Positions 1 through 57,800 of a DNA stretch of 64,000 bases are shown here, piece after piece; the stretch's first letter is position 1; the number at the start of each line of letters is the position of its first letter. The stretch lies in sequence record OL741057.1; one strand, 5' to 3'. The position numbers and the translations under genes are program-made. The notes below the pieces were generated by a model, which did no database searches, was not told where the DNA came from, and worked only from the letters and a program-made list of their open reading frames with translations. Source of the DNA: Staphylococcus phage vB_Sau_P68.

Positions 1-2483
1 TTCTCTACTTCTACTCTTAATCCTCCAGGTATAGCTACCCCATCATAGTCTAACATAGATACCTTGGATGAATAGAATACAATATTACTTTGATAAGTTG
101 CAACCATATATCTTACAAGGTCTTTAATATTTGTTATTTCTTCTCCTGTGTATTCATTATAAAACTTACCATCAATATTAGTTTTATAGGGGTTATAGTT
201 AGCTGTAGGTGCTAGGAAAGGCTCTCCTGTTTTATTAAAAGTGTACTCTTTCTCTTTAGGTTTGTATTCTACAATAAGTACACCTTGTCTATTTGCATCT
301 GATTTAGTTCTACTTTTGTAAACAATAATACTAAATAGTCTATTATTATAAGAGAACGCACCTTCATGTTCAATCATATCGACAACTTTACCTTGTTTAG
401 TTAGGTAATCTCGTAACTCATAAGGATGGTACGTATAATCATTCATAATATCTCCACTAGGGCTTATCTCTTGTACCCCTTGTAAATGATAAGTATGTGG
501 TTCAATATCTCTAGTTGGGTTCCAGTTACCTCCTAGTGTCTGTACGATGGTATTATTTATAAGTGTCATACCTTGCTTCTTAGCTGAGTGGTTTGTAACT
601 CCCCCTAATAAATTACTTGACCATAATGTAGAATTAGAAGGGTTTATCCATAAGTACCCTGTTTTTTTACTGAAATCCTTGTTGAAAAATACTACCGTAT
701 CTCTCTGTAAAAACACACCTTTAGTTTGGTTATTGTATTCTACTCCCCATCCACTTTCTGTTCTAAAGAAATTCATGTATGCGTTTATATTATATTCTTC
801 TACAGGTTGTAACGTTGATTTCTCCTCAATATTTCTAGAATTAGTTACATCAAACTTACCTATATTATTATTGCTTGTTCTAGCATAGAGGTAAGTTTTA
901 GTTCCTTCTGTTTCTACATGAAGACCTTCTCCTCCGGTTGTTCCTGCGTAAAACATATTAACATACTTATAAAACTCATCATAGATAACAATTAGTCTTT
1001 TAGTACCACTCTCAGGAGCTGAATGTATAATATAGGTTTGACCGTTATTAATGGCAATACCTTGTGGGAAATAATACGTCACATTATCATTTGCTACTAT
1101 ACTATCATAGTCTTGGAATTTAAAGGGTAAATCTGCATGTATTTTTATGTCCCTAAACGTTGTATGTCTATACTTTTGTTCGGTATTTCTTATTGCAGGT
1201 AAATCAGTGTTAACAATTGTTTCAACCGAGCCCTGCTCCCCTGCTAGGTATTCATTTACCTCATCATAAAAATCTTTGAATGTTCTATCTCTAAAATCTT
1301 GGAATTGTGTTATAATACCTTCTGTTCTAGAACTTACAGCACTTATATTTGTTCCTAAGGTTTGAACATCTTTAGTAGCTTGGTTAGATGCTTCTATAGA
1401 CTCTTTAGTAGAGGCAATAAGTTCCTCTAGATTATCCTTCCCTACTCCTTCTAAGAGATAATTTATATCTTCCAGTTCTTTTTGTATCTCTTCTAAGTTT
1501 TTCATAGATTCTTCAATACTATCTCCTAAGTTTTCTAACATAGGCTTTTCATCTATATAAATACCATCATCTGTAAATTCAAATTTATGTTTATCATTTT
1601 TAATATAAAATTTATTATCTTCACTAATTCCATACTCAACCCAAACTTGAGCTTCATCTAACATTAAGTCATCGTCTTGTTTAATTACTCTATAAGACCC
1701 ATCACTCGACATTTCTTGTGTTGTTCTTTGTTGTGTTTCTGTATTTAATACTGATGTTCTAATATCCCCTCGTTCAGAAAGGAATAGAGTAGTTATATGG
1801 TTATCAGGTGTACCATCATCATAAAAAACGCCTTGATGTTTAAATAACATATTAGGTGCTTTTTGTATTCTAGGCTCAATCAATGTTTTATTACCATAAT
1901 ATGAAGTAAATAAATCTTGATATTCTGTACCAGTATAGAAGTCTGAAGCTTGTGGTTTCTCCTCTTCACCTGATGTCATAGAGAAGAATGACTTACCATT
2001 AAAAGTTTTAATACTTGTTCCTTCACCATCATCATACTTATAATTTAAAGATGGAAGTATCTCATATAGTGCACTACTATATTTATAAACACTATCCGTA
2101 TCAAATTTACCTCCGTCTAGGGGGTTAGTATTAATCATTTTATTTTGTTCATTATCACCGTACACACTTAGAATAATAGGACTGTTTATATCATCATTTA
2201 GAAATCCAATTAATACTACAGAACCTTCAGTAATTAAAGGTTTTGTTCCGAATACACTGCCTTCAGGTGTTCTACCAATAAAGGATTTAGGATAAGGTAC
2301 AGCTAAGCTACCATCATCTCCTATATGTCTACCTAGTGTTAAGTTATTAACTTTTACTTCAACTGATTGGTATTGATAATTTATTTTACTTACTGTAGCT
2401 AAAACTAGCCCTTTTACATTTAAGTCGTCTGAATCTACTCTTTTTAAACTTCTTCCCATGGAAGATTGGAATCTTACTACCAT
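1..2483 (-). CDS. tail/baseplate-associated structural protein, partial (start ATG at 2483; frame open past window edge, >826 codons). I recall the Kayvirus gene at this position as an ~848-aa glycerophosphodiesterase-family protein (tentative).
   Basis: Manual translation of minus strand from ATG 2483-2481 (MVVRFQSSMGRSLKRVDSDDLNVKG...) stays open to position 1. The start overlaps the upstream stop by 1 nt (TAATG). It lies in the tail lysin/baseplate cluster. Confidence 0.6.
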   Translation of the reverse strand, partial: MVVRFQSSMGRSLKRVDSDDLNVKGLVLATVSKINYQYQSVEVKVNNLTLGRHIGDDGSLAVPYPKSFIGRTPEGSVFGTKPLITEGSVVLIGFLNDDINSPIILSVYGDNEQNKMINTNPLDGGKFDTDSVYKYSSALYEILPSLNYKYDDGEGTSIKTFNGKSFFSMTSGEEEKPQASDFYTGTEYQDLFTSYYGNKTLIEPRIQKAPNMLFKHQGVFYDDGTPDNHITTLFLSERGDIRTSVLNTETQQRTTQEMSSDGSYRVIKQDDDLMLDEAQVWVEYGISEDNKFYIKNDKHKFEFTDDGIYIDEKPMLENLGDSIEESMKNLEEIQKELEDINYLLEGVGKDNLEELIASTKESIEASNQATKDVQTLGTNISAVSSRTEGIITQFQDFRDRTFKDFYDEVNEYLAGEQGSVETIVNTDLPAIRNTEQKYRHTTFRDIKIHADLPFKFQDYDSIVANDNVTYYFPQGIAINNGQTYIIHSAPESGTKRLIVIYDEFYKYVNMFYAGTTGGEGLHVETEGTKTYLYARTSNNNIGKFDVTNSRNIEEKSTLQPVEEYNINAYMNFFRTESGWGVEYNNQTKGVFLQRDTVVFFNKDFSKKTGYLWINPSNSTLWSSNLLGGVTNHSAKKQGMTLINNTIVQTLGGNWNPTRDIEPHTYHLQGVQEISPSGDIMNDYTYHPYELRDYLTKQGKVVDMIEHEGAFSYNNRLFSIIVYKSRTKSDANRQGVLIVEYKPKEKEYTFNKTGEPFLAPTANYNPYKTNIDGKFYNEYTGEEITNIKDLVRYMVATYQSNIVFYSSKVSMLDYDGVAIPGGLRVEVE

Positions 2484-3370
2484 TAAATATACACCTCTTC
2501 ATCAAATCTCATAACTCTTCCGTTAAACTCATTCCAATAATCATCGAGCTTATATCTACCTATAGGTGTTTCATCTTTAGGAAATTTACCTATCATAGAT
2601 ATAAATTCTCCGTCACCTACATATATTCCTATGTTAGTGTCACTTCTACCAAAGAACAGTATATCTCCTGCTATAAACTTATTAATATCTACTTTATACT
2701 TATGCCCTTTACCAAATACAGTGTAAAATCTTCCTTCTGTAAAGAAATAGTTAATGTTCATAGGGTAAGCTAACTCTTCATCTTCACTTAAGTATAACCA
2801 ATACAGTAAGTTATAAGTATCAATGTAAACATCTTTATCTGTACCAAAAGGATTCTCTTTAGGGGCTCCTTTAAACATATATTTTATATTAGTTAGGGAA
2901 TCTATAGCATCATTTAACTCCAACGCTAATATAGTACTTAAAGGTACATCTTCATTAAACAGGTATTCCTCTTCCATATACTCACCGTATAAAACATCTT
3001 GTATCTCATCAAAGTAATCTATTAGAATTTCTTGGTTTCTTTCTACTAAATGGACTGTTACTGTTGATAAGGAGTCTGTTGGTATAGACCCTCTATCAAC
3101 TAAATAACTTACCTTACGAAAACTTAATTCTGCTTCTATATCTGTACCGTTATTTAAAAAGGACTCATATTGAATCTGTTGAGGGTTTAAACTCTGTATA
3201 ACTCCTACATAAGGTCTAATGTAAACAACCTTCTCGTACATATCTTCTGTAGTTATCTTTTTAATCTCGGCATCTTTCTCTTTAACTCTTTCTGTAGTTA
3301 AAACATCAAAATTAAACACGTTATCTATGAATTTATCAATAATATCTTTAGCTTCCTTATCTGTTGCCAT
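2483..3370 (-). CDS. conserved tail-module protein (295 aa) downstream of the tail murein hydrolase
   Basis: 295-aa ORF tightly packed between the tail hydrolase gene and the next structural gene. Same size and position as what I recall for the Kayvirus tail-associated protein. Confidence 0.7.
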   Translation of the reverse strand: MATDKEAKDIIDKFIDNVFNFDVLTTERVKEKDAEIKKITTEDMYEKVVYIRPYVGVIQSLNPQQIQYESFLNNGTDIEAELSFRKVSYLVDRGSIPTDSLSTVTVHLVERNQEILIDYFDEIQDVLYGEYMEEEYLFNEDVPLSTILALELNDAIDSLTNIKYMFKGAPKENPFGTDKDVYIDTYNLLYWLYLSEDEELAYPMNINYFFTEGRFYTVFGKGHKYKVDINKFIAGDILFFGRSDTNIGIYVGDGEFISMIGKFPKDETPIGRYKLDDYWNEFNGRVMRFDEEVYI

Positions 3371-12612: not shown

Positions 12613-13908
12613 TTATTTATAATTTTGTATATAGTCAATATAACTTATACTTTTTAGTGTATCACTTTTTTCCTGTTCTGTAGCTTCTCTAATATTGTAC
12701 CCTTTAACAGTGTTTCTTTTACCCTTAGCACAATCTACAATGGATGCTACATCTGAACTTATTCTTTTTGTCATCATATGCAAAGGCAACTTAATATCTT
12801 CTGAACCTTTAGTTGCTACATATACTTTAATTCTTTTATCTGTTATTGTTTTAGCTACTTCTGAAAAGTCTTCATCTTCATATCTCCAAAGATAACCACA
12901 TGATTGCTTTTTACTTCCTGATACACACCCTCTAATACTTGATGAAGGTAATCCTAAATTACTAAAGTATTCTTGTGCTTCTTTTAAAGTGTCAAATCTA
13001 ATTTCTTCTAGTGTCTTAATATTTAATCCTACTACAGGTTTAAATCTTTTCTTAACCCCTCTACGTTTCATTAAACCTTTAACATTACCAACACTCATAT
13101 TAAATTTATTTGCAGTTTCTTCTGAAGAGTGTTCTTTATAGAATTCTATAATCTCTTTTTCATTTTCTTTATATTTTGTAAACAGTTCTATTCTCTCAGT
13201 ATAATTTAAATTAATTTCTAAGAACGAACTTATAGTATTTAATATGTCCTTTTTGTCCTCATTAGGATAATAGATATATAGTAACTTTATGTTATTATCT
13301 TTACAGTATTTTTCTTTTAGTGAATCTAGCTCTTGTATCTTTTCTAAGGGCGTACTCCATGTTCCAGTAGCTTGTTTAATATGTTGTTGCCCCATATATT
13401 CAATAGCATATTTATTACCATTTAATTCTATATAAAAATCTAATCTTTGTGGTCTCTCTAATCCTGTGTAGATAGATTTTTCACATATAAATTCGATACC
13501 ATTTTCTTTAAGTATAGTCTGTATAATTCTCTCTCCGATACTTTTCATATGGTCTTGAGGACAATTATTATTAGTATTGTTCTCAAAACTATTCCATATA
13601 ACATCCCATTTATTCCCTTGCGGTGATAGTAGTAAACATCTCTTTGTTGATTGCAGATTTTCAGGGTAGTTTATAATACTATACCCTCTACTTTTAGCGT
13701 AAGAAGAAAAATATTTCTTTTTACCTTCTTCTGTAAGTTGTGTTAGTCTTATTTGTTTTAAGTTATTTAAGTTATTGTAGGACACGTAACATTCACAACC
13801 TTTAAATTTACCTTCCAAAACAACACCTAAATGTTTTGTATCTTTTGCTCTACCTCTATATTCTACGATTTTTATATTTTTTTCTTTTGCTAATTTTTCA
13901 ATTTCCAT
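12613..13908 (-). CDS. free-standing homing endonuclease-like protein: Vsr/EDxHD-like nuclease core plus two NUMOD-like DNA-binding motifs
   Basis: 431 aa. Central RLDFYIELNGNKYAIEYMGQQH matches the DUF559/Vsr-type PD-(D/E)XK motif and is also present in the 40945 ORF. Two helix-turn-helix repeats end in GN-K-G/GYLWRY (NUMOD-type). Own promoter (TTGACA-17-TATCAT) and RBS GAAGAGGTG. A strong hairpin terminator follows the stop. Confidence 0.7.
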   Translation of the reverse strand: MEIEKLAKEKNIKIVEYRGRAKDTKHLGVVLEGKFKGCECYVSYNNLNNLKQIRLTQLTEEGKKKYFSSYAKSRGYSIINYPENLQSTKRCLLLSPQGNKWDVIWNSFENNTNNNCPQDHMKSIGERIIQTILKENGIEFICEKSIYTGLERPQRLDFYIELNGNKYAIEYMGQQHIKQATGTWSTPLEKIQELDSLKEKYCKDNNIKLLYIYYPNEDKKDILNTISSFLEINLNYTERIELFTKYKENEKEIIEFYKEHSSEETANKFNMSVGNVKGLMKRRGVKKRFKPVVGLNIKTLEEIRFDTLKEAQEYFSNLGLPSSSIRGCVSGSKKQSCGYLWRYEDEDFSEVAKTITDKRIKVYVATKGSEDIKLPLHMMTKRISSDVASIVDCAKGKRNTVKGYNIREATEQEKSDTLKSISYIDYIQNYK

Positions 13909-13967
13909 ATTAAAACACCTCTTCTATTAAAGTATATACTAATGATACTATATCATTAGTCTTTTGT

Positions 13968-14000
13968 CAATAGAAAAGACCTAACTTTTATTGTTAGGTC
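13968..14000 (-). terminator. rho-independent terminator after tail tube exon 3
   Basis: Minus strand AGACCUAAC-AAUAAAA-GUUAGGUCU followed by UUUUCUAUU. Confidence 0.7.
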
Positions 14001-14023
14001 TATATTCTATAATAAATACGAAC

Positions 14024-14062
14024 TTATGTTCTGGCTTTATCTGATGCGGTCAAGTACGAAAA
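14024..14062 (-). CDS. tail tube protein, exon 3 (FSYLTASDKART*)
   Basis: Minus strand UUU UCG UAC UUG ACC GCA UCA GAU AAA GCC AGA ACA UAA, directly preceded by an intron-terminal G (AAAUCG|). It continues the tail tube reading frame. Confidence 0.8.
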   Translation of the reverse strand, partial: FSYLTASDKART

Positions 14063-14450
14063 CGATTTATTTATTTACAAACGCTACTTTGTAAACCTGT
14101 GTTATTTCACATGCACTAGCTTTCACTACGTGACTAGACTATTTGTTATCCCTAATTAGTAGGGCAAGGATTTTTCTTCTCCCAATAGCTTGGAGCTTTA
14201 CTCTCATCTTATAATGAGATAGTCGTTGAACGTTCCTCTTATGATTTACTATCACTTAGAGTATTCGATGCTATACACCCATTGTACTTCTCCTTAGGAT
14301 TTAACCTTAGAGTATCTCAATCATTTTTTCTACTTTCGTAACCTTCTAGTTTATTGTTTCCAATTCCTATGTGGTTGATTGAGCTTTAGAAGTTTCATAG
14401 CAGTTAACCCTTAATACTCACAGATTACTCTATGAGCAGAGTGTAAAATT
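14063..14450 (-). other. group I intron 2 in tail tube gene (ORF-less, ~385-388 nt)
   Basis: Minus-strand R element GUUCAACGACUA (plus 14222-14233) and S element AAAUAGUCUAG (plus 14137-14147) form P7 (GACUA/UAGUC). P-like AAUUGGAAAC and Q-like AAAUCCUAAGG, plus P8/P9 hairpins. Terminal G at 14063. The 5' boundary is ambiguous within 14448-14451. Confidence 0.75.
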
Positions 14451-14501
14451 CTCAATTTCCTCTGTCACTATTTCATTGGTCTGCCACGTCTCGTTATAGT
14501 T
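14451..14501 (-). CDS. tail tube protein, exon 2 (NYNETWQTNEIVTEEIE[N])
   Basis: Minus strand AAC UAU AAC GAG ACG UGG CAG ACC AAU GAA AUA GUG ACA GAG GAA AUU GAG, preceded by intron-1 terminal G at 14502. The exon may extend 3 nt (AAU) to 14448, which would satisfy the U-before-5'-splice-site rule. Confidence 0.8.
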
Positions 14502-14834
14502 CACTTATACCCTATCTCTCGATATATTTAAAGGGGTTAGACTGTCCCATGTCCCTTATTTATAAGGTGACTACCTATTACAGTCGTTGAAGCTTCCCAC
14601 TCTCGTAGGCTTGCCTGCGGATTTCCTATTAATTGAGTACTTAGGACATTAATAATGTGTCGCTAGTTATTAATGCTTTTATCTCACCGTATACTATCCA
14701 ATTAATTTTTTCTGATTTCTCAACATTCACGCTTACTTTTTCAAGTTACGTTGTAGTTTAATTGGCTTTAAGGTGTTCCCGCAATTTCAGGTATTATTCG
14801 ACTATACATTACTGTATAGAAGCAACAATTATTT
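14502..14834 (-). other. group I intron 1 in tail tube gene (ORF-less, 333 nt)
   Basis: Minus strand P element AAAUUGCGGGAAC (plus 14777-14789) pairs with Q element AAUCCGCAGGC (plus ~14604-14614) to give P4. R-like UUCAACGACUGU and S-like GGGACAGUCUAACC give a 6-bp P7 (GACUGU/ACAGUC). P2 hairpin CUAUACA-GUAA-UGUAUAG. The 5' splice site follows U (GCCAAU|) and the intron ends with G. Confidence 0.8.
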
Positions 14835-15173
14835 ATTGGCACTACATCCGTGGTAACTAATGATAACTTGTTTAGTTAAATTATCTACTACTAAGATATC
14901 AATGATATCTTTCTTAAGAATTTCTTCACCAAGTGAAGCATATCCTAAATCTGCAAAGTTTTCTTTTTTCATACGTAAACGTTCTACTGTAATTGTACCT
15001 TCATAACGTAAGTATACGTGTTCTTGAGGCATGATAGAACCGATTTCGTATACACCAGTTGTACCGTATTCACGAGTACCTGATGCTGATTGTGCTCTTC
15101 CTACCGGTTTACCTTTAATCATAAGTAAGACGGTATTACCAGTATGGACGGTTTGTTTAGCTTCTGATGCCAT
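14835..15173 (-). CDS. tail tube protein, exon 1 (113 codons, MASEAKQ...SYHGCSAN)
   Basis: ORF immediately downstream of the tail sheath gene with RBS AGGAGAG. The apparent 114-aa ORF ends with 2 intron-encoded codons (K*). Joined exons give 142-143 aa, the tail-tube length I recall for Twort-like phages. Confidence 0.85.
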
Positions 15174-15245: not shown

Positions 15246-17009
15246 TTAGGCTTGTAATGTTTGTTGCTTGTAAACCAAGCTAACAGAGATTTTCTTGAAG
15301 CTTCTGATTGGGTAAACTGTCATTGAAATTCTTGCTTTGTTACCTTCAACAATAACTTGTACGTCTTCAGCAGGGAAGTCTTGAATTTCATTATCACGTT
15401 TCTTACGACCCAAGTAAGATTGGATAAAGTCTTTAATGATTGAAGCACTTGTATTGATAGTACGAGTACCAATGAATTGGTCTTCAAGTTGAACTTTAAG
15501 CTCACTTACTAAGAAGTCATTAGCTTCCCCAACAGCCATCTCAGCCTTAACTGGGTCTGACTTATCGTTGAATGTAGTTACGTCATCAACGATTCTGAAG
15601 AATGTATTAGTACGGTTACGAACAAACTCGATACTAATAATACCATTTTCATTTAATTCATCTAAATCAATTGACTCGTATACTTGGTCTAACGCACTTA
15701 CACGTAATGGTTTGAAAGTGATTGATTCACCGATTTCTAAACCACTTGCAAGACCACCTAAAGCTACAGCTACCATATAAGCAGGTACGTGGTTTTTACG
15801 TCCATCATCCATAACAAAAGTACCTGAGTTAGCTACTAATGATACACGAGGATTAGATAATGATGCTTGTCTACCGAACAACTGTTCTTTAGATTCATTA
15901 AATCCTCCGCCAACAATAGCTCTCATTGGTTCTCCTGCGTCAGAACGTTCTTTAACGAAAGCAGATACCTCTGCATGAACTGATTGTTTAGATGATAATG
16001 GGACAATGTAGTATCCGCCTTCATGTGCAAATTTCTCTAATTTATCTGCCCATGTAGCAGGTGGTTCACCGTTAGTACCGCCTTTTAACTTAGTTAATTC
16101 GAAAGGCTCAATAGTTCTAATAGGTGAAGTAGCTGTTACTGTAGCTGATTCTTCTCCTGCTTCAACCTCTACATTACTTGGTACTTCTCCTTCTGCATTA
16201 AGTTGCTCGAAAGATACAATACCATTATAAGCTGTTTGTTTTTCTAAGTCACCGAAGACTGCTTTAACGTATACAGCTTTATCTTTAATATTTACATCTG
16301 ATGCTTTATCTAATTTACTAGATTCTAAGTTTTTATCTCCGAAAGGTGATAACTTAGCTTCAAAATCAGGTAATTGATTAATGTCTGTAATAATAGCGTT
16401 AGTATAGTCATAAGCACCGCTAGTTAAGTCATATGATTTAACTTCTTGGTCTCCGACTTTTAATACCAAACGACTTGCTTTTTGAGTTTCTTCATCATGT
16501 TCTACAGAGAAAGTTGCGTTAGCTTCTTCTCCTTTGTACTTGATTGTGAAGATATTACCGATATTATCATAAACTTCATTGAAACGGTCATCTTGGAAAA
16601 TTACTCTTAAACGTAATGAATCACTTAATGTATTCTTTTCCAATCCTACTTGAATGTTATTAGCAACATTACCGTAGATTTGAGATGTTATTTTTAATCC
16701 GCCAGCTTCTACTGAAGCAGGTTTAGCATCCTCAGTACGCATAGCTAAAATCTTACCTGCTGTATAGTTAGGGTTAGAACCCCATGCTAATTCAATTGCA
16801 TCAAGTAATTCTCCTGAACGGAATAAACGTTTAGCTTGTGCATAGTTACGTAATTCATAAACTGTATTTGGTTCTCCGCCTTCTGCTGAACCGATTAAGC
16901 AAAATACTTTTTCACTTGAACCTGCTGAGCCACCGATACCTGAAGTATCTACTTCAATAGATGCATGAGGGCGGGTAATAGGTCTTCTTGGGAATGGTTC
17001 TACTGCCAT
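15246..17009 (-). CDS. tail sheath protein
   Basis: 587 aa. Immediately upstream of the tail tube gene, separated by a GGAGUACC...GGUACUCC hairpin. The size matches what I recall for the Kayvirus sheath protein. Confidence 0.85.
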   Translation of the reverse strand: MAVEPFPRRPITRPHASIEVDTSGIGGSAGSSEKVFCLIGSAEGGEPNTVYELRNYAQAKRLFRSGELLDAIELAWGSNPNYTAGKILAMRTEDAKPASVEAGGLKITSQIYGNVANNIQVGLEKNTLSDSLRLRVIFQDDRFNEVYDNIGNIFTIKYKGEEANATFSVEHDEETQKASRLVLKVGDQEVKSYDLTSGAYDYTNAIITDINQLPDFEAKLSPFGDKNLESSKLDKASDVNIKDKAVYVKAVFGDLEKQTAYNGIVSFEQLNAEGEVPSNVEVEAGEESATVTATSPIRTIEPFELTKLKGGTNGEPPATWADKLEKFAHEGGYYIVPLSSKQSVHAEVSAFVKERSDAGEPMRAIVGGGFNESKEQLFGRQASLSNPRVSLVANSGTFVMDDGRKNHVPAYMVAVALGGLASGLEIGESITFKPLRVSALDQVYESIDLDELNENGIISIEFVRNRTNTFFRIVDDVTTFNDKSDPVKAEMAVGEANDFLVSELKVQLEDQFIGTRTINTSASIIKDFIQSYLGRKKRDNEIQDFPAEDVQVIVEGNKARISMTVYPIRSFKKISVSLVYKQQTLQA

Positions 17010-35653: not shown

Positions 35654-35727
35654 GGCTCATTGGTGTAACTGGTTAACACACTGCCCTGTCACGGCAGAGA
35701 GTACGAGTTCGAGTCTCGTATGAGTCG
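35654..35727 (+). tRNA. tRNA-Asp (anticodon GUC)
   Basis: Cloverleaf: acceptor GGCUCAU/AUGAGUC, D-arm GUGU-AACUGGUUAA-CACA, anticodon arm CUGCC-CUGUCAC-GGCAG, T-arm ACGAG-UUCGAGU-CUCGU. No encoded CCA. Confidence 0.85.
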
Positions 35728-36037: not shown

Positions 36038-36541
36038 ATGACTAATGAAGCTAAACAACCTAAAGTTGTTGGAGGAATAAACCTTAGTACACGAACTAAG
36101 AGTAAAACATTTTGGGTAGCAATTATATCGGCAGTAGCAGTATTTGCTAATCAAATTACAGGTGCTTTTGGTTTAGATTATTCAGCTCAAATTGAGCAAG
36201 GTGTCAATATCATAGGTTCTATACTAACATTATTAGCAGGTTTAGGTATTATTGTTGATAATAATACTAAAGGTCTTAAAGACAGTGATATTGTTCAAAC
36301 AGACTATACAAAACCTCGTGATAGTAAAGACCCTAATGAATTTGTTCAATGGCAAGCAAATGCAAACACAGCTAGTACTTTTGAATTAGACAACTACGAA
36401 AACAATGCAGAGCCTGATACAGATGATAGTGATGAAGTACCTGCTATTGAAGATGAAATTGATGGCGGTTCAGCACCTTCTCAAGACGAAGAAGATACCG
36501 AAGAACACGGTAAAGTATTTGCGGAGGAGGAAGTTAAGTAA
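36038..36541 (+). CDS. holin
   Basis: 167 aa. Two transmembrane helices followed by an acidic C-terminal tail. Immediately upstream of, and overlapping, the endolysin start (ATGA-type). The size matches what I recall for the Kayvirus holin. Confidence 0.8.
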
Positions 36542-37175
36542 TGGCTAAGACGCAAGCAGAAATAAATAAACGTTTAGACGCATATGCAAAAGGAACAGTA
36601 GATAGCCCTTATAGAGTTAAGAAAGCAACAAGTTATGACCCTTCATTTGGTGTAATGGAGGCAGGAGCAATTGATGTAGATAAATATTATCACGCTCAGT
36701 GTCAAGACCTTATTACAGACTATGTATTATGGTTAACAGATAATAAAGTTAGAACTTGGGGTAATGCTAAAGACCAAATCAAACAAAATTATGGTACTGG
36801 ATTTAAAATACACCAAAATAAACCTTCTACAGTACCTAAAAAAGGTTGGATTGCAGTATTTACTTCAGGTAGCTATACACAGTGGGGTCACATAGGTATT
36901 GTATATGATGGAGGTAATACTTCAACATTTACTATTTTAGAGCAAAACTGGAACGGTTACGCTAATAAAAAACCTACAAAACGTGTAGATAACTATTACG
37001 GATTAACTCATTTCATTGAAATACCTGTAAAAGCAGGAACTACTGTTAAAAAAGAAACAGCTAAGAAAAGTGCAAGTAAAACACCTGCACCTAAAAAGAA
37101 AGCAACATTAAAAGTTTCTAAGAATCATATTAACTATACAATGGATAAACGAGGTAAAAAACCTGAAGGAATGGT
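36541..37175 (+). CDS. lysK: endolysin exon 1 (CHAP domain), LysK-like
   Basis: Reads [12 protein letters not shown]...[24 protein letters not shown]..., a CHAP Cys/His pattern. The frame ends in an intron-encoded stop right after ...KKPEGMV. Confidence 0.85.
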
Positions 37176-38132
37176 GTAAAAAATAATCTATAAAATAACT
37201 TGTAATTCTATTAGTTCTATGGTATAATACTTATATAATGATGTAGGAGGTATTATACATGGAAGAAATTTGGAAAGACATTCAAGGATATGAAGGTAAA
37301 TATAAAGTTAGTAACCTAGGAAATGTTAAATCAATAAAACGAACTGTTAAACACGCAGGAAGTAATACTAGAACTTTTCCTGAAACTTTATTGAAACCTA
37401 ATAAAGTAGCATTTGATTATCTTCAAGTAACTCTATATAAAGAAGGTAAAAGAAAATGTAGGTACGTTCATAATTTAGTAATGGAAGCTTTTGTAGGAGA
37501 AAAGGAAAAAGGTTTTGAGACAAATCATAAAAATGAAATAAAAAGTGATAATAGGCTTGAAAACTTAGAATACATTACTGCAAAAGAAAATAATAATTAT
37601 GGGACACGAATACAAAGAATGTCTGAAAAAAATACTAATGGGAAAAGAAGTAAGAAAATTAAAGGTACTCATTTAAAAACTAAAGTTGAAATTATTTTAC
37701 CTTCTATTGAAGAAGCAAAAAGACAAGGATATGGTAATCATATATCTGAAGTTTGTAATGGTAAAAGAAATTCATGTAAAGGTTATAAATGGGAATTTAT
37801 AGATTAAGCACTGCATATATCGTGAGGTATATGTACTAAAAACATAAATTGCTTTGAAGAACCTTAGAGCCTTGATACCACAATAAAGCTGAAAAGACTT
37901 TATGAGGGTTTAACAAGTTCAAGGATTGGTTTGTTTAGCATCACTACTCCTAAGTGATAGAAAAATCATAAGGAGAATGTTCAACGACTAGAGGATTGCC
38001 TCCTCGTAGGGTTCAAGTGAACTCGAAAGAAGAACTATCTCACAGAGATAGAGAGAAATAGTCTGCTCACGTCCTGTAATGGGAGTGCTAGGTAATACCT
38101 AGAGCTAGATTAACGAACTAGTGAAACATAAG
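37176..38132 (+). mobile_element. group I intron in endolysin gene carrying an HNH homing endonuclease ORF
   Basis: 957 nt. 5' splice site after U (AUGGU|), terminal G at 38132, then exon 2 (G AUA CAC AAC GAU = V-I-H-N-D). Downstream of the ORF: R element GUUCAACGACUA (~38029) and S element AAAUAGUCUGC (~38086) form P7. Internal extended -10 promoter at 37200-37228. Confidence 0.8.
37259..37807 (+). CDS. intron-encoded HNH homing endonuclease (I-KsaI-like)
   Basis: 182 aa. Motifs HKNEIKSDNRLENLEYITAKENN (HNH) and C-terminal NSCKGYKWEF. RBS GGAGG. Confidence 0.8.
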   Translation: MEEIWKDIQGYEGKYKVSNLGNVKSIKRTVKHAGSNTRTFPETLLKPNKVAFDYLQVTLYKEGKRKCRYVHNLVMEAFVGEKEKGFETNHKNEIKSDNRLENLEYITAKENNNYGTRIQRMSEKNTNGKRSKKIKGTHLKTKVEIILPSIEEAKRQGYGNHISEVCNGKRNSCKGYKWEFID

Positions 38133-38988
38133 GATACACAACGATGCGGGTCGTTCTTCAGGACAACAATACGAGAATTCATTAGCTAAAGCAGGTTATG
38201 CTAGATATGCTAATGGTATTGCTCATTACTACGGTTCTGAGGGTTATGTATGGGAAGCAATAGATGCTAAGAATCAAATTGCTTGGCATACAGGAGATGG
38301 GACAGGAGCAAACTCAGGTAACTTTAGATTTGCAGGTATTGAAGTCTGTCAATCAATGAGTGCTAGTGATGCTCAATTCCTTAAAAATGAACAAGCAGTA
38401 TTCCAATTTACAGCAGAAAAATTTAAAGAGTGGGGTCTTACTCCTAACCGTAAAACTGTAAGATTGCATATGGAATTCGTTCCTACTGCATGTCCTCACC
38501 GTTCTATGGTTCTTCATACAGGATTTAATCCAGTAACACAAGGAAGACCATCACAAGCAATAATGAATAAACTTAAAGATTATTTCATTAAACAAATTAA
38601 AAACTACATGAGTAACGGAACTTCAAGTTCTACTGTAGTTAAAAAAGGTAAAACAAGTAGTGCAAGTACACCGGCAACTAGACCAGTTACAGGTTCTTGG
38701 AAAAAGAACCAATACGGAACTTGGTATAAACCGGAAAACGCAACATTTGTTAATGGTAACCAACCTATAGTAACTAGAATAGGTTCTCCATTCTTAAATG
38801 CTCCAGTAGGAGGTAACTTACCGGCAGGAGCTACAATTGTATATGACGAAGTTTGTATCCAAGCAGGTCATATTTGGATTGGTTATAACGCTTATAATGG
38901 TAACAGAGTATATTGCCCTGTTAGAACTTGTCAAGGTGTTCCACCTTCACATGTACCTGGAGTTGCCTGGGGGACATTCAAGAGTTAA
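38133..38988 (+). CDS. lysK: endolysin exon 2 (amidase_2 + SH3b domains)
   Basis: Frame open from 38125 ([16 protein letters not shown]...). Amidase motifs (AWHTGDG...[12 protein letters not shown]) and SH3b C-terminus (...[27 protein letters not shown]...VAWGTFKS). Joined exons give ~496 aa. Confidence 0.85.
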
Positions 38989-57201: not shown

Positions 57202-57770
57202 ATAGTAGTTAACTAAAGCCTCTTATATAATGCTAAACACAGTTAGCCTTTTTTAACCTTATAATGAGAGTAAGAGCCTAACTATATGGGTACTTTGAAA
57301 TCATTATATTTTACCTATGGTATAGGTGAACCGTACCTACTTTCCAAATAGGGATAACTCAAAATCAGGTAGCAACTTGAGAGTGAAATAAGTCGGACAG
57401 CTTTATATTCAGAAGAAGTGTCAGAGGATATAAAGTAATGGCTTGAGATACCGAGCCTTGATTACTAGGTATCAGACACTTGGCGTGTAACCTAAGTTTA
57501 TGGTTAGATGGGTTGCAACATAAGGAAGCTGATTTCCTCTGTATAGCTTGGAGGAACTCCATAAGACAGCCAAACCACTGTATATTCAGTTACTATGGCA
57601 AAGCTATATGAGGTAAACTCTTATATAGCTCCCTGTTATAGTACATACACGCAGTGACGAGCGTTTCAACATCAAGGATACTCATACAATTGTCGTAAAA
57701 TAATATTAACCGTAATCTAAGTACGGGAGCCTTGATGGGACACCTATTTTAATTAATAGGTGTTTTTTTT
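57202..57770 (+). ncRNA. candidate ~570-nt structured non-coding RNA with its own promoter and intrinsic terminator
   Basis: No ORF on the plus strand. GC-elevated. Many hairpins (e.g. AGCUAUAUGAG...CUCUUAUAUAGCU; CCAUA...UAUGG; GGAAGCUGAUUUCC). Repeated GAGCCUUGAU motif. Terminator ACACCTATT-TTAATTAAT-AGGTGT followed by TTTTTTTT at 57740-57770. Confidence 0.5.
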
Positions 57771-57771
57771 A

Positions 57772-57800
57772 TTGACATTTATAAATAAGTATGGTAAGAT
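57772..57800 (+). promoter_or_regulatory. sigma-A promoter (TTGACA-17-TAAGAT)
   Basis: Upstream of the phosphatase gene. Confidence 0.6.

What the first reader, a model, noticed from the sequence alone, without database searches (positions are those of the whole stretch)
14024..15173. Tail tube gene split into three exons by two ORF-less group I introns
The apparent 114-aa tail tube ORF (14829..15173, minus) stops two codons into an ORF-free 0.8-kb stretch. That stretch contains two short, correctly phased open segments on the minus strand. One is NYNETWQTNEIVTEEIE(N) at 14451-14501. The other is FSYLTASDKART-stop at 14024-14062. Joined to exon 1 after ...SYHGCSAN they give a 142-143-aa protein, the tail-tube length I recall for Twort-like phages (recalled, not looked up). 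The exon order is read straight off the sequence. Each intervening segment carries hallmark group I elements. Intron 1 (14502-14834) has P AAAUUGCGGGAAC paired with Q AAUCCGCAGGC. It also has a 6-bp P7 (UUCAACGACUGU with ACAGUC) and a GNRA-capped P2 hairpin. Its 5' splice site follows U and it ends in G. Intron 2 (14063-14450) has R GUUCAACGACUA and S AAAUAGUCUAG forming P7, P8/P9 hairpins and a terminal G. A structural virion gene carrying two self-splicing introns and no intron ORF is rare. It parallels the three-intron orf142 reported in phage Twort (Landthaler and Shub 1999).
Basis: partly seen in the sequence, partly recalled or inferred. Interest (0 to 1): 0.85.

Follow-up and report, generated by a model that had tools for sequence, protein, structure and literature searches.

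The report
Two group I introns split tail-tube gene
The tail-tube gene of this Staphylococcus Twort-like phage really is cut into three pieces by two ORF-less group I introns, but this is a known habit of this gene in this phage group, so the only surprise is that the second intron appears to splice after a G instead of the near-universal U.

Summary
On the minus strand, exon 1 (15173..14835), exon 2 (14501..14451) and exon 3 (14062..14024) join into a 142-aa protein. That protein is 99.3% identical over its full length to intronless Kayvirus tail-tube proteins and to the solved 142-aa structure 8q01. This settles the exon 2 end at 14451.

Both spacers (333 and 388 nt) are group I introns. Rfam scores them below its gathering cut-off (32 and 15.9 bits against 50). 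However, alignments with homologous introns from other sites and genes show the full P2-P9 core, including the P3/P7 pseudoknot. In those alignments 95-96% of cells are paired (31-45% in slid controls), with 29/76 and 56/90 compensatory pairs.

The finding is not rare. Twort orf142 is this same gene. Kayvirus 812 and relatives are published as having two non-coding tail-tube introns plus an adjacent nuclease gene. I found at least 11 insertion sites within 82 nt of this gene.

What is specific here:
- The sites (after nt 339 and 390) differ from those of Twort and 812.
- A free-standing nuclease gene lies directly downstream (12613..13908).
- The exon flanks look like co-conversion tracts.
- Intron 2's 5' exon ends in G (apparently a G-C pair, not U.G). 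This needs cDNA proof.

Verdict: new member of a known kind, with low to moderate interest.

The parts
14835..15173 (-). Tail-tube exon 1 (aa 1-113, ends ...SYHGCSAN; last base U)
   Evidence: ORF list; tblastn aa 1-113 at 100%; junction aligned to intronless G1
14502..14834 (-). Intron 1, 333 nt, ORF-less group I intron. IGS GUUG (14826..14823) pairs with exon CAAU (14838..14835). P2 14819..14802; P3 14793..14789 with 14576..14572; P4 14783..14778 with 14621..14616; about 150-nt P5 extension 14765..14636; P6/P6a 14612..14590; P7 14585..14580 with 14545..14540; P8 14571..14551; P9 14535..14510; terminal G at 14502
   Evidence: Rfam RF00028 32 bits, E 5e-6 locally; exact 333-nt absence in OPT-SC01; covariation 96.1% paired, 29/76 compensatory; helix coordinates
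14451..14501 (-). Tail-tube exon 2 (51 nt, aa 114-130, NYNETWQTNEIVTEEIE; last base G)
   Evidence: contiguous with exon 1 in OPT-SC01 and with exon 3 in vB_Sau_CG
14063..14450 (-). Intron 2, 388 nt, ORF-less group I intron with P7.1/P7.2 (IA2-like). Candidate IGS CUC 14441..14439; P2 14438..14415; P3 14412..14406 with 14172..14166; P4 14402..14399 with 14272..14269; P5 and extension 14391..14278; P6 14267..14231; P7 14224..14220 with 14141..14137; P7.1 14219..14202; P7.2 14195..14179; P8 14164..14150; P9 14131..14115; P9.1 14096..14073; terminal G at 14063
   Evidence: Rfam 15.9 bits, E 0.37; 100% identical to phage WV, absent in vB_Sau_CG and G1; covariation 94.8% paired, 56/90 compensatory; fold z-score -3.2; coordinates
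14024..14062 (-). Tail-tube exon 3 (aa 131-142 FSYLTASDKART plus stop TAA)
   Evidence: differs from G1 at 13/39 bases with no amino-acid change
13977..14001 (-). Intrinsic terminator-like hairpin plus T-run ending the tail-tube transcript. It sits in the same place as the terminator after the intronless G1 gene
   Evidence: G1 sequence
13942..13970 (-). Sigma-70-like promoter match (TTGACA-17-TATCAT, 11/12) in front of the nuclease ORF
   Evidence: consensus match only
12613..13908 (-). Free-standing putative homing nuclease gene (431 aa) directly downstream of the tail-tube gene
   Evidence: phrog_7140 'intron encoded nuclease' E 9e-126, partial HNH and homing-endonuclease PHROGs; weak I-HmuI NUMOD-like Pfam hit; 52% identical to Twort gpORF106, which sits in the same position, and 28-45% to the 812-type and vB_Sau_CG 'intron-encoded nucleases'; present next to intron-bearing tail-tube genes and absent from intronless G1

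Best explanation
The tail-tube gene (tmpA, the homologue of Twort orf142) of this Kayvirus-like Staphylococcus phage is interrupted by two ORF-less group I introns. Intron 1 lies after codon 113 (nt 339) and intron 2 after codon 130 (nt 390). The transcript runs from the tail-tube start to the terminator at 14001..13977. Each intron folds into a group I ribozyme and is excised, and the ligated exons encode the normal 142-aa tube subunit. Shown here: the exon structure, the conserved and covarying ribozyme folds, and purifying selection on all three exons. Inferred: actual self-splicing. Also inferred: the introns have no nuclease of their own, so they are most likely kept and spread at the DNA level by the free-standing nuclease gene directly downstream (12613..13908). 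In this 'collaborative homing' model the nuclease cuts intron-less tail-tube alleles in the 3' part of the gene. Repair then copies the nuclease gene, the introns and the flanking exon sequence from the donor. Intron 1 uses a canonical P1 (exon CAAU with IGS GUUG, U.G at the splice site). Intron 2 appears to use a 3-bp P1 (exon GAG with CUC) with G-C at the splice site.
For: Exons: the 142/142-aa match to intronless homologues and to PDB 8q01, with exact presence/absence polymorphism of each intron in relatives.

Coding constraint: compared with G1, nt 301-429 carry 34 base differences and no amino-acid change.

Ribozymes: the intron-1 family alignment shows 96.1% of cells paired against 31-43% in slid controls, with 29/76 pairs compensatory, including P3, P4, P5, P7, P8 and P9. 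The intron-2 family comes from six different host genes and two phage subfamilies. It shows 94.8% paired against 34-45%, with 56/90 compensatory.

P1 of the intron-1 family co-varies with the exon at four sites: CAAU/GUUG, GAAU/GUUC, GGUU/GACC and CCUU/GAGG. The first 67 nt of intron 1 are 84% identical to Twort orf142-I2.

Homing: the exon flank next to intron 1 is 97% identical to I1-bearing vB_Sau_CG but 69-79% identical to alleles lacking I1. Exon 3 is 100% identical to I2-bearing OPT-SC01 but 67-80% identical to alleles lacking I2. Nuclease homologues sit downstream of the gene in Twort, 812-type PM32, OPT-SC01, Stab23, 184DA, Golestan, PG-2021_23 and vB_Sau_CG, but not in intronless G1.

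Literature: kayvirus 812 derivatives lost the introns and the nuclease gene together (PMC6445280). The collaborative homing concept is described in PMC3984707.
Against: Neither intron reaches Rfam's gathering score. No RNA or cDNA data were available, so splicing, and self-splicing in particular, is inferred. Intron 2 lacks the U.G wobble at the 5' splice site, and its P1 is only 3 bp. Remus and KSAP7 carry tail-tube introns without the downstream nuclease gene within the stretch examined, so the nuclease is not required for maintenance. The nuclease's catalytic family and target were not established: Pfam gave only a weak NUMOD-like hit, and the single-sequence structure model was useless at pLDDT 33.
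Confidence: 0.88

Rival explanations
1. Intron 2 is removed, but not by unaided canonical self-splicing. Because its 5' exon ends in G, it would need a host or phage factor, use a slightly different junction, or splice inefficiently.
For: The only junctions that reproduce the conserved protein are G(-1)/terminal G or A(-1)/terminal C. P1 is 3 bp (GAG/CUC). All 10 other insertion sites found in this gene follow U. Established knowledge, not looked up here, holds that the U.G pair matters for the first splicing step.
Against: The catalytic core, including J4/5 and J5/4, is identical to family members with canonical GGGU/GCCC P1. GAG/CUC is conserved in a diverged lineage (PG-2021_23) and changes compensatorily to CAG/CUG in Enterococcus phages. 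At least nine viable isolates carry this intron in an essential, highly expressed gene.
Confidence: 0.2
2. Exon 2 ends three bases later (14448), after U. The product would be a 143-aa protein with an extra Asn between E130 and F131.
For: GAGAAU| would put a U before the splice site. AAU is conserved in all Staphylococcus alleles at this site.
Against: No sequence complementary to GAGAAU lies upstream of P2. AAU(U) is also the first intron bases of family members in other genes, such as KSAP7 GGGU|AAUUGCCC. In the Enterococcus homologues the three bases after the exon are UAA. All intronless proteins read EIEF.
Confidence: 0.06
3. The interruptions are dead intron remnants, and the phage uses a truncated tube protein (114 aa as annotated in several GenBank records, or 136 aa where only intron 2 is present).
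For: Depositors annotate truncated CDSs. Rfam scores are sub-threshold. Golestan-105-M has a 101-nt deletion in intron 1.
Against: Exons 2 and 3 are conserved at the protein level through 22 synonymous changes relative to G1. All core helices are intact with compensatory changes. The terminator follows exon 3 exactly as in intronless genes. The solved tube subunit is 142 aa.
Confidence: 0.03

Closest known systems
Phage Twort orf142 (tail-tube gene) with three self-splicing group I introns (Landthaler and Shub 1999, as cited in PMC11878797 and PMC5526547; original paper not readable here)
   Same: It is the same gene: exon 1 is 88.7% identical at the protein level. The introns are ORF-less group I introns clustered in the last quarter of the gene. 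A homologous 437-aa ORF lies directly downstream, 52% identical to the window's ORF. The 5' 67 nt of window intron 1 are 84% identical to Twort I2.
   Different: There are two introns, not three. The insertion sites are nt 339 and 390, against 345, 386 and 409 in Twort. Window intron 1 has an approximately 150-nt P5 extension and no P7.1/P7.2. Intron 2 is unrelated to the Twort introns by blastn and follows G rather than U.
[quoted passage not shown]
   Same: The genus-level background and the architecture are the same: two ORF-less introns followed by a free-standing nuclease gene. The nucleases are distantly related, at 29-45% identity.
   Different: The introns are different, with no blastn similarity. 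The sites are different: about nt 358 and 391 in PM32. PM32's second intron sits one base downstream of window intron 2 and has a canonical GAGU/GCUC P1.
Collaborative homing of ORF-less group I introns with free-standing homing endonucleases (reviewed in PMC3984707)
   Same: An ORF-less intron in a conserved gene has a free-standing nuclease gene next to it. The exon flanks show the divergence pattern expected of co-conversion.
   Different: The cleavage site and the activity of the nuclease were not tested here. Several introns at many nearby sites share one neighbourhood.

Membership tests
Group I intron (Rfam RF00028 Intron_gpI) | Score at or above the family's gathering threshold (50 bits) | tested here: not met
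   Intron 1 scores 32.0 bits and intron 2 scores 15.9 bits. Nothing is found at gathering threshold. The model alignment shows insertions of 150 nt or more (P5 extension, P7.1/P7.2) that it cannot accommodate.
Group I intron | Conserved core: P3-P4-P5-P6-P7-P8-P9 with the P3/P7 pseudoknot and the P, Q, R, S elements, supported by covariation | tested here: met
   Intron 1 family: 96.1% paired, 29/76 compensatory. Intron 2 family: 94.8% paired, 56/90 compensatory. Slid controls give 31-45%.
Group I intron | 5' splice site after a U that forms a U.G wobble with the internal guide sequence in P1 | tested here: inconclusive
   Intron 1 meets this feature: CAAU|/GUUG, with exon-IGS covariation across four insertion sites. 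Intron 2 does not meet it: the exon ends GAG and the best P1 is GAG/CUC with G-C at the site.
Group I intron | Terminal (omega) G at the 3' end of the intron | tested here: met
   Intron 1 ends ...AAGUG|AAC and intron 2 ends ...AAAUCG|UUU.
Group I intron | Precise excision restores the host reading frame | tested here: met
   142/142 aa match to intronless homologues and to PDB 8q01.
Group I intron | GTP-dependent self-splicing | not testable with these tools
   This requires an in vitro transcript assay or cDNA from infected cells.
Subgroup IA2 (typical phage introns) | P7.1 and P7.2 hairpins between P7 and P3' | tested here: inconclusive
   Intron 2 has both, and both covary (helices 15 and 16). 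Intron 1 has only AAU between P7 and P3', so its subgroup is left unassigned.
Orthologue of a Twort orf142 intron (I1, I2 or I3) | Same insertion site in the same gene | tested here: not met
   The gene is the same, but the sites are nt 339 and 390 against 345, 386 and 409.
Collaborative homing system | A free-standing nuclease gene adjacent to an ORF-less intron, with the nuclease cutting the intron-less allele at or near the insertion site | tested here: inconclusive
   Adjacency and co-occurrence are met, and co-conversion-like flanks are seen. Cleavage specificity cannot be tested here.

The most novel reading that the evidence does not exclude
The intron-2 lineage is found at this one site in Staphylococcus and Enterococcus phage tail-tube genes. 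It would be a natural group I intron that splices efficiently after a G paired with C, one base upstream of where its canonical relatives sit. This would break the most conserved rule for 5' splice-site choice. It lies in an 82-nt hot spot with at least 11 intron insertion sites, maintained by an adjacent free-standing nuclease.
Probability: 0.4. Interest if true: 0.55.

Novelty: new member of a known kind. Interest (0 to 1): 0.3.

Why it matters
The practical value is in annotation. Many deposited Twortvirinae genomes, including candidates for phage therapy, list a truncated 'tail tube protein' because these introns are not recognised and Rfam misses them at its default threshold. The exon map given here corrects that.

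Biologically, the locus adds two insertion sites to a dense intron hot spot in an essential structural gene. It also offers a tractable test of collaborative homing. If cDNA confirms that intron 2 splices after a G-C pair, it would be a natural exception useful for understanding how group I ribozymes choose the 5' splice site.

Tried and rejected
- Rfam at gathering threshold found no intron. A permissive whole-window scan also missed them. Only a local scan gave sub-threshold hits.
- I did not build a covariance model.
- Landthaler and Shub 1999 could not be opened, so the Twort splice sites were re-derived from the Twort genome.
- A literature search for natural exceptions to the U.G rule gave nothing usable (one search failed on syntax).
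- An IMG/VR scan with the P7-P7.1 core motif returned 120 loci. Only two were in tail-tube genes: L026, the Enterococcus type at the same site, and L136, at a new site around nt 374.
- A single-sequence structure prediction of the 431-aa nuclease was unusable (pLDDT 33). NCBIfam and PDB sequence searches gave no meaningful hit.
- Alternative P1 pairings for intron 2 were considered and rejected because they are not conserved in PG-2021_23, 184DA or the Enterococcus homologues. These were GAAAUU/AAUUUU, CAGAG/CUCUG and UGAG/CUCA.
- The 38-aa ORF inside intron 2 has no family match.

Full report
**What the window is.** The first 25 kb match Staphylococcus Herelleviridae/Twortvirinae phages (WV, Stab23, St14.GH, CF7 and others) at about 93-96% identity with no exact match. 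The window is therefore a Kayvirus-like phage genome segment. The finding lies between the tail sheath gene (15246..17009, minus) and a 431-aa ORF (12613..13908, minus).

**Check of the observation.**
- The 114-aa ORF at 14829..15173 is real and ends AAT AAA TAA.
- Joining 15173..14835, 14501..14451 and 14062..14024 gives a 429-nt reading frame. Its 142-aa product is 99.3% identical over its whole length to the uninterrupted tail-tube genes of G1, SA5, HSA30 and many others. It also matches the 142-aa tail-tube protein of PDB 8q01 (E 1e-90, residues 1-142 to 1-142).
- Within a 1.7-kb subject, the two short exons are found by tblastn at E 4e-9 and 1.5e-4.
- Natural presence/absence variants fix the boundaries. 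OPT-SC01 lacks exactly the 333 nt of intron 1. vB_Sau_CG has intron 1 and lacks intron 2. G1 lacks both.
- For intron 1, the DNA alignment allows a shift of up to 2 nt. Only 14835|14834 and 14502|14501 put a U before the 5' splice site and a G at the intron end.
- For intron 2, the product EIE|FSY requires GAG|AAUUUU...AAAUCG|UUUUCG. The only alternative register is A(-1) with a terminal C.
Intronless proteins read EIEF. AAU(U) is the usual first sequence of this intron family in other genes. In Enterococcus phage homologues at the same site, the three bases after the exon are UAA.

**Are the spacers group I introns?** Rfam does not report them at its gathering threshold. A local scan gives RF00028 at 32.0 bits (E 5e-6) for intron 1 and 15.9 bits (E 0.37) for intron 2, against a cut-off of 50. 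The model alignment shows why. Intron 1 has an approximately 190-nt insertion between the two strands of P4. Intron 2 is mis-threaded.

I therefore used comparative evidence. Both introns have many homologues in phage genomes, at other sites of the tail-tube gene and in other genes. The other genes are portal, tail lysin, tape measure, exonuclease, sbcD and endolysin.

- *Intron-2 family.* I aligned 11 members and counted a structure with P2, P3, P4, P5 plus extension, P6, P7 (pseudoknot), P7.1, P7.2, P8, P9 and P9.1. Standard pairs form in 94.8% of cells, against 34-45% when partners are slid by 1-3 columns. Changes on both sides occur in 56 of 90 pairs. No shuffle out of 500 reaches the observed values (RNAalifold).
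- *Intron-1 family.* For 10 members, 96.1% of cells pair, against 31-43% in slid controls. Compensatory changes occur in 29 of 76 pairs, including P3, P4, P5, P7 (GACUGU/ACAGUC against GACUAU/AUAGUC), P8 and P9.
- *P1 of the intron-1 family* tracks the exon at four different insertion sites: CAAU/GUUG, GAAU/GUUC, GGUU/GACC and CCUU/GAGG, always with U.G at the splice site.
- *Single-sequence folding* is weakly to moderately better than shuffles (z -1.8 and -3.2).

Intron 2 has P7.1/P7.2 and is IA2-like. Intron 1 lacks them, so I leave its subgroup open. Its first 67 nt are 84% identical to Twort orf142-I2. Neither intron has an ORF with a family match.

**Evidence that the exons are expressed as one protein.** Relative to G1, the first 300 nt of the gene are 97.3% identical. 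Nt 301-429 carry 34 differences, none of which changes an amino acid. The terminator-like hairpin follows exon 3 (14001..13977), just as a terminator follows the intronless G1 gene. Phages carrying these introns are viable isolates from several countries. Splicing itself was not observed and remains inferred.

**Context and likely mobility mechanism.** The 431-aa ORF directly downstream matches PHROG 7140 'intron encoded nuclease' (E 9e-126). It has partial matches to HNH and homing-endonuclease PHROGs and a weak I-HmuI NUMOD-like Pfam hit.
- It is 52% identical to Twort gpORF106, which occupies the same position after Twort's three-intron tail-tube gene.
- It is 28-45% identical to the 'putative intron-encoded nucleases' next to the gene in 812-type PM32 and in vB_Sau_CG.
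- It lies behind a terminator and a promoter-like site, so it is free-standing.
- Homologues are present next to the intron-bearing genes of OPT-SC01, Stab23, 184DA, Golestan-105-M, PG-2021_23 and Twort. They are absent from intronless G1. They are also absent within the stretches examined of intron-bearing Remus and KSAP7.

The exon flanks behave like co-conversion tracts. The 39 nt upstream of intron 1 are 97% identical to I1-bearing vB_Sau_CG but 69-79% identical to alleles without I1. Exon 3 is 100% identical to I2-bearing OPT-SC01 but 67-80% identical to alleles without I2. Botka et al. report that 812 derivatives lost the tail-tube introns and the nuclease gene together (PMC6445280). This fits collaborative homing as reviewed in PMC3984707. 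The nuclease's target and activity are untested.

**Comparison with what is known.** Twort orf142 is the tail-tube gene (PMC11878797; PMC5526547). I re-derived its junctions from MT151386: introns after nt 345, 386 and 409. [quoted passage not shown] PM32 shows that arrangement, with depositor-annotated Intron_gpI features. Its introns are unrelated by blastn to those in the window and sit at about nt 358 and 391.

Across the loci I fetched there are at least 11 insertion sites between nt 328 and 409 of the 429-nt gene: 328, 339, 345, 358, 366, 374, 386, 390, 391, 402 and 409.

- Intron 1 is 90% or more identical in 28 phage records.
- Intron 2 is 95% or more identical in 9 records, and 100% identical in phage WV.
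- Both occur together only in 184DA (which has a third intron; 83-88% identity) and in Golestan-105-M (where intron 1 carries a 101-nt deletion).

The window's intact pair is therefore a new combination of known parts. Depositors usually annotate a truncated CDS instead. One paper states that no introns were found in vB_Sau_CG tmpA, although its sequence contains intron 1.

**The unexplained point.** Intron 2's 5' exon ends in G.
- The bases just upstream of P2 are ACUCUG in the window and 184DA, AACUCC in the diverged PG-2021_23 allele, and AGCUGUG in Enterococcus phages EfeBG-143 and IMG/VR L026.
- The exons end GAG, GAG and CAG. A 3-bp P1 (GAG/CUC, CAG/CUG) is therefore conserved, with one compensatory change.
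- The four-base guide (ACUC or GCUG) is complementary to the ligated junction GAG|U or CAG|U. This looks as if the intron sits one base upstream of the canonical position. Relatives with GAGU|...GCUC occupy that canonical position (PM32 intron 2, RQ1, PT1-1).
- J4/5 and J5/4 do not differ from canonical family members.
- That U.G is nearly universal at this position rests on my own knowledge of the field, not on a source read here.
- The 812-type first intron has an ambiguity of its own, between a terminal A and a C-G splice site.

Only cDNA sequencing and a splicing assay can settle these points.

**Verdict.** It is not rare. It is a further instance of a documented feature of Twortvirinae tail-tube genes, at insertion sites not described in the papers I could read. 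It comes with an adjacent free-standing nuclease gene and one real oddity, the G before intron 2.

Noticed in passing
window 12613..13908 (-), with promoter-like site 13970..13942 and terminator 14001..13977: A free-standing putative homing nuclease gene (phrog_7140, E 9e-126) lies directly downstream of the tail-tube gene. It is homologous to Twort gpORF106 and, distantly, to the 812-type nuclease. GenBank relatives call it 'hypothetical protein'.
   Followed up: partly
tail-tube CDS nt 328-409; loci L003, L006, L007, L009, L010, L017, L026, L136: There are at least 11 distinct group I intron insertion sites within 82 nt of the tail-tube gene across Staphylococcus and Enterococcus Herelleviridae. 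Ten follow U. Only the site after nt 390 follows G.
   Followed up: partly
window 36541..38988 (+): A split endolysin of the lysK type: CHAP exon 36541..37179, an HNH/NUMOD4 nuclease ORF at 37259..37807, then an SH3_5-containing exon ending at 38988. An R-like element TCAACGACTAG lies at 37981. This is presumably the known lysK group I intron, and Rfam does not detect it.
   Followed up: partly
window 57642..57774 (+) and 57255..57314 (+): Rfam DUF3800-I RNA sits just above its gathering score (45.0 against 44.2 bits). A sub-threshold S. aureus TEG147 match (44.5 against 56.1) lies nearby. A tRNA is at 35654..35727.
   Followed up: no
L004 (Golestan-105-M) 967..1198; alignment A3 columns 68-168: Intron 1 of phage Golestan-105-M lacks 101 nt, covering the 5' strand of P4 and most of the P5 extension. 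This should inactivate the ribozyme in an essential gene. It may be an assembly error, or the phage tolerates it in some unexplained way.
   Followed up: no
L024 Stab23 g100, L001 OPT-SC01, L002 vB_Sau_CG_19, L003 184DA_147, L007 Remus gp156, L021 KSAP7 orf26: Deposited annotations give truncated tail-tube CDSs (113-136 aa) that read into the introns. The introns themselves are unannotated in these records.
   Followed up: yes
L006 (PM32, 812-type) 2340..2665: The first 812-type tail-tube intron has an ambiguous 3' junction. P1 (GAGACAU/GUGUCUC) and P10 (GGCAG/CUGCU) imply an intron ending in A and keeping W120. A terminal G would instead require a C-G splice site and would delete W120, which matches the 426-nt orf103 reported for phage 812.
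   Followed up: partly
window 14139..14255 (-): A 38-aa GTG-initiated ORF lies inside intron 2 and has no family match. 184DA annotates a 'hypothetical protein' of the same length at the corresponding place, on the opposite strand. It is probably not a gene.
   Followed up: yes
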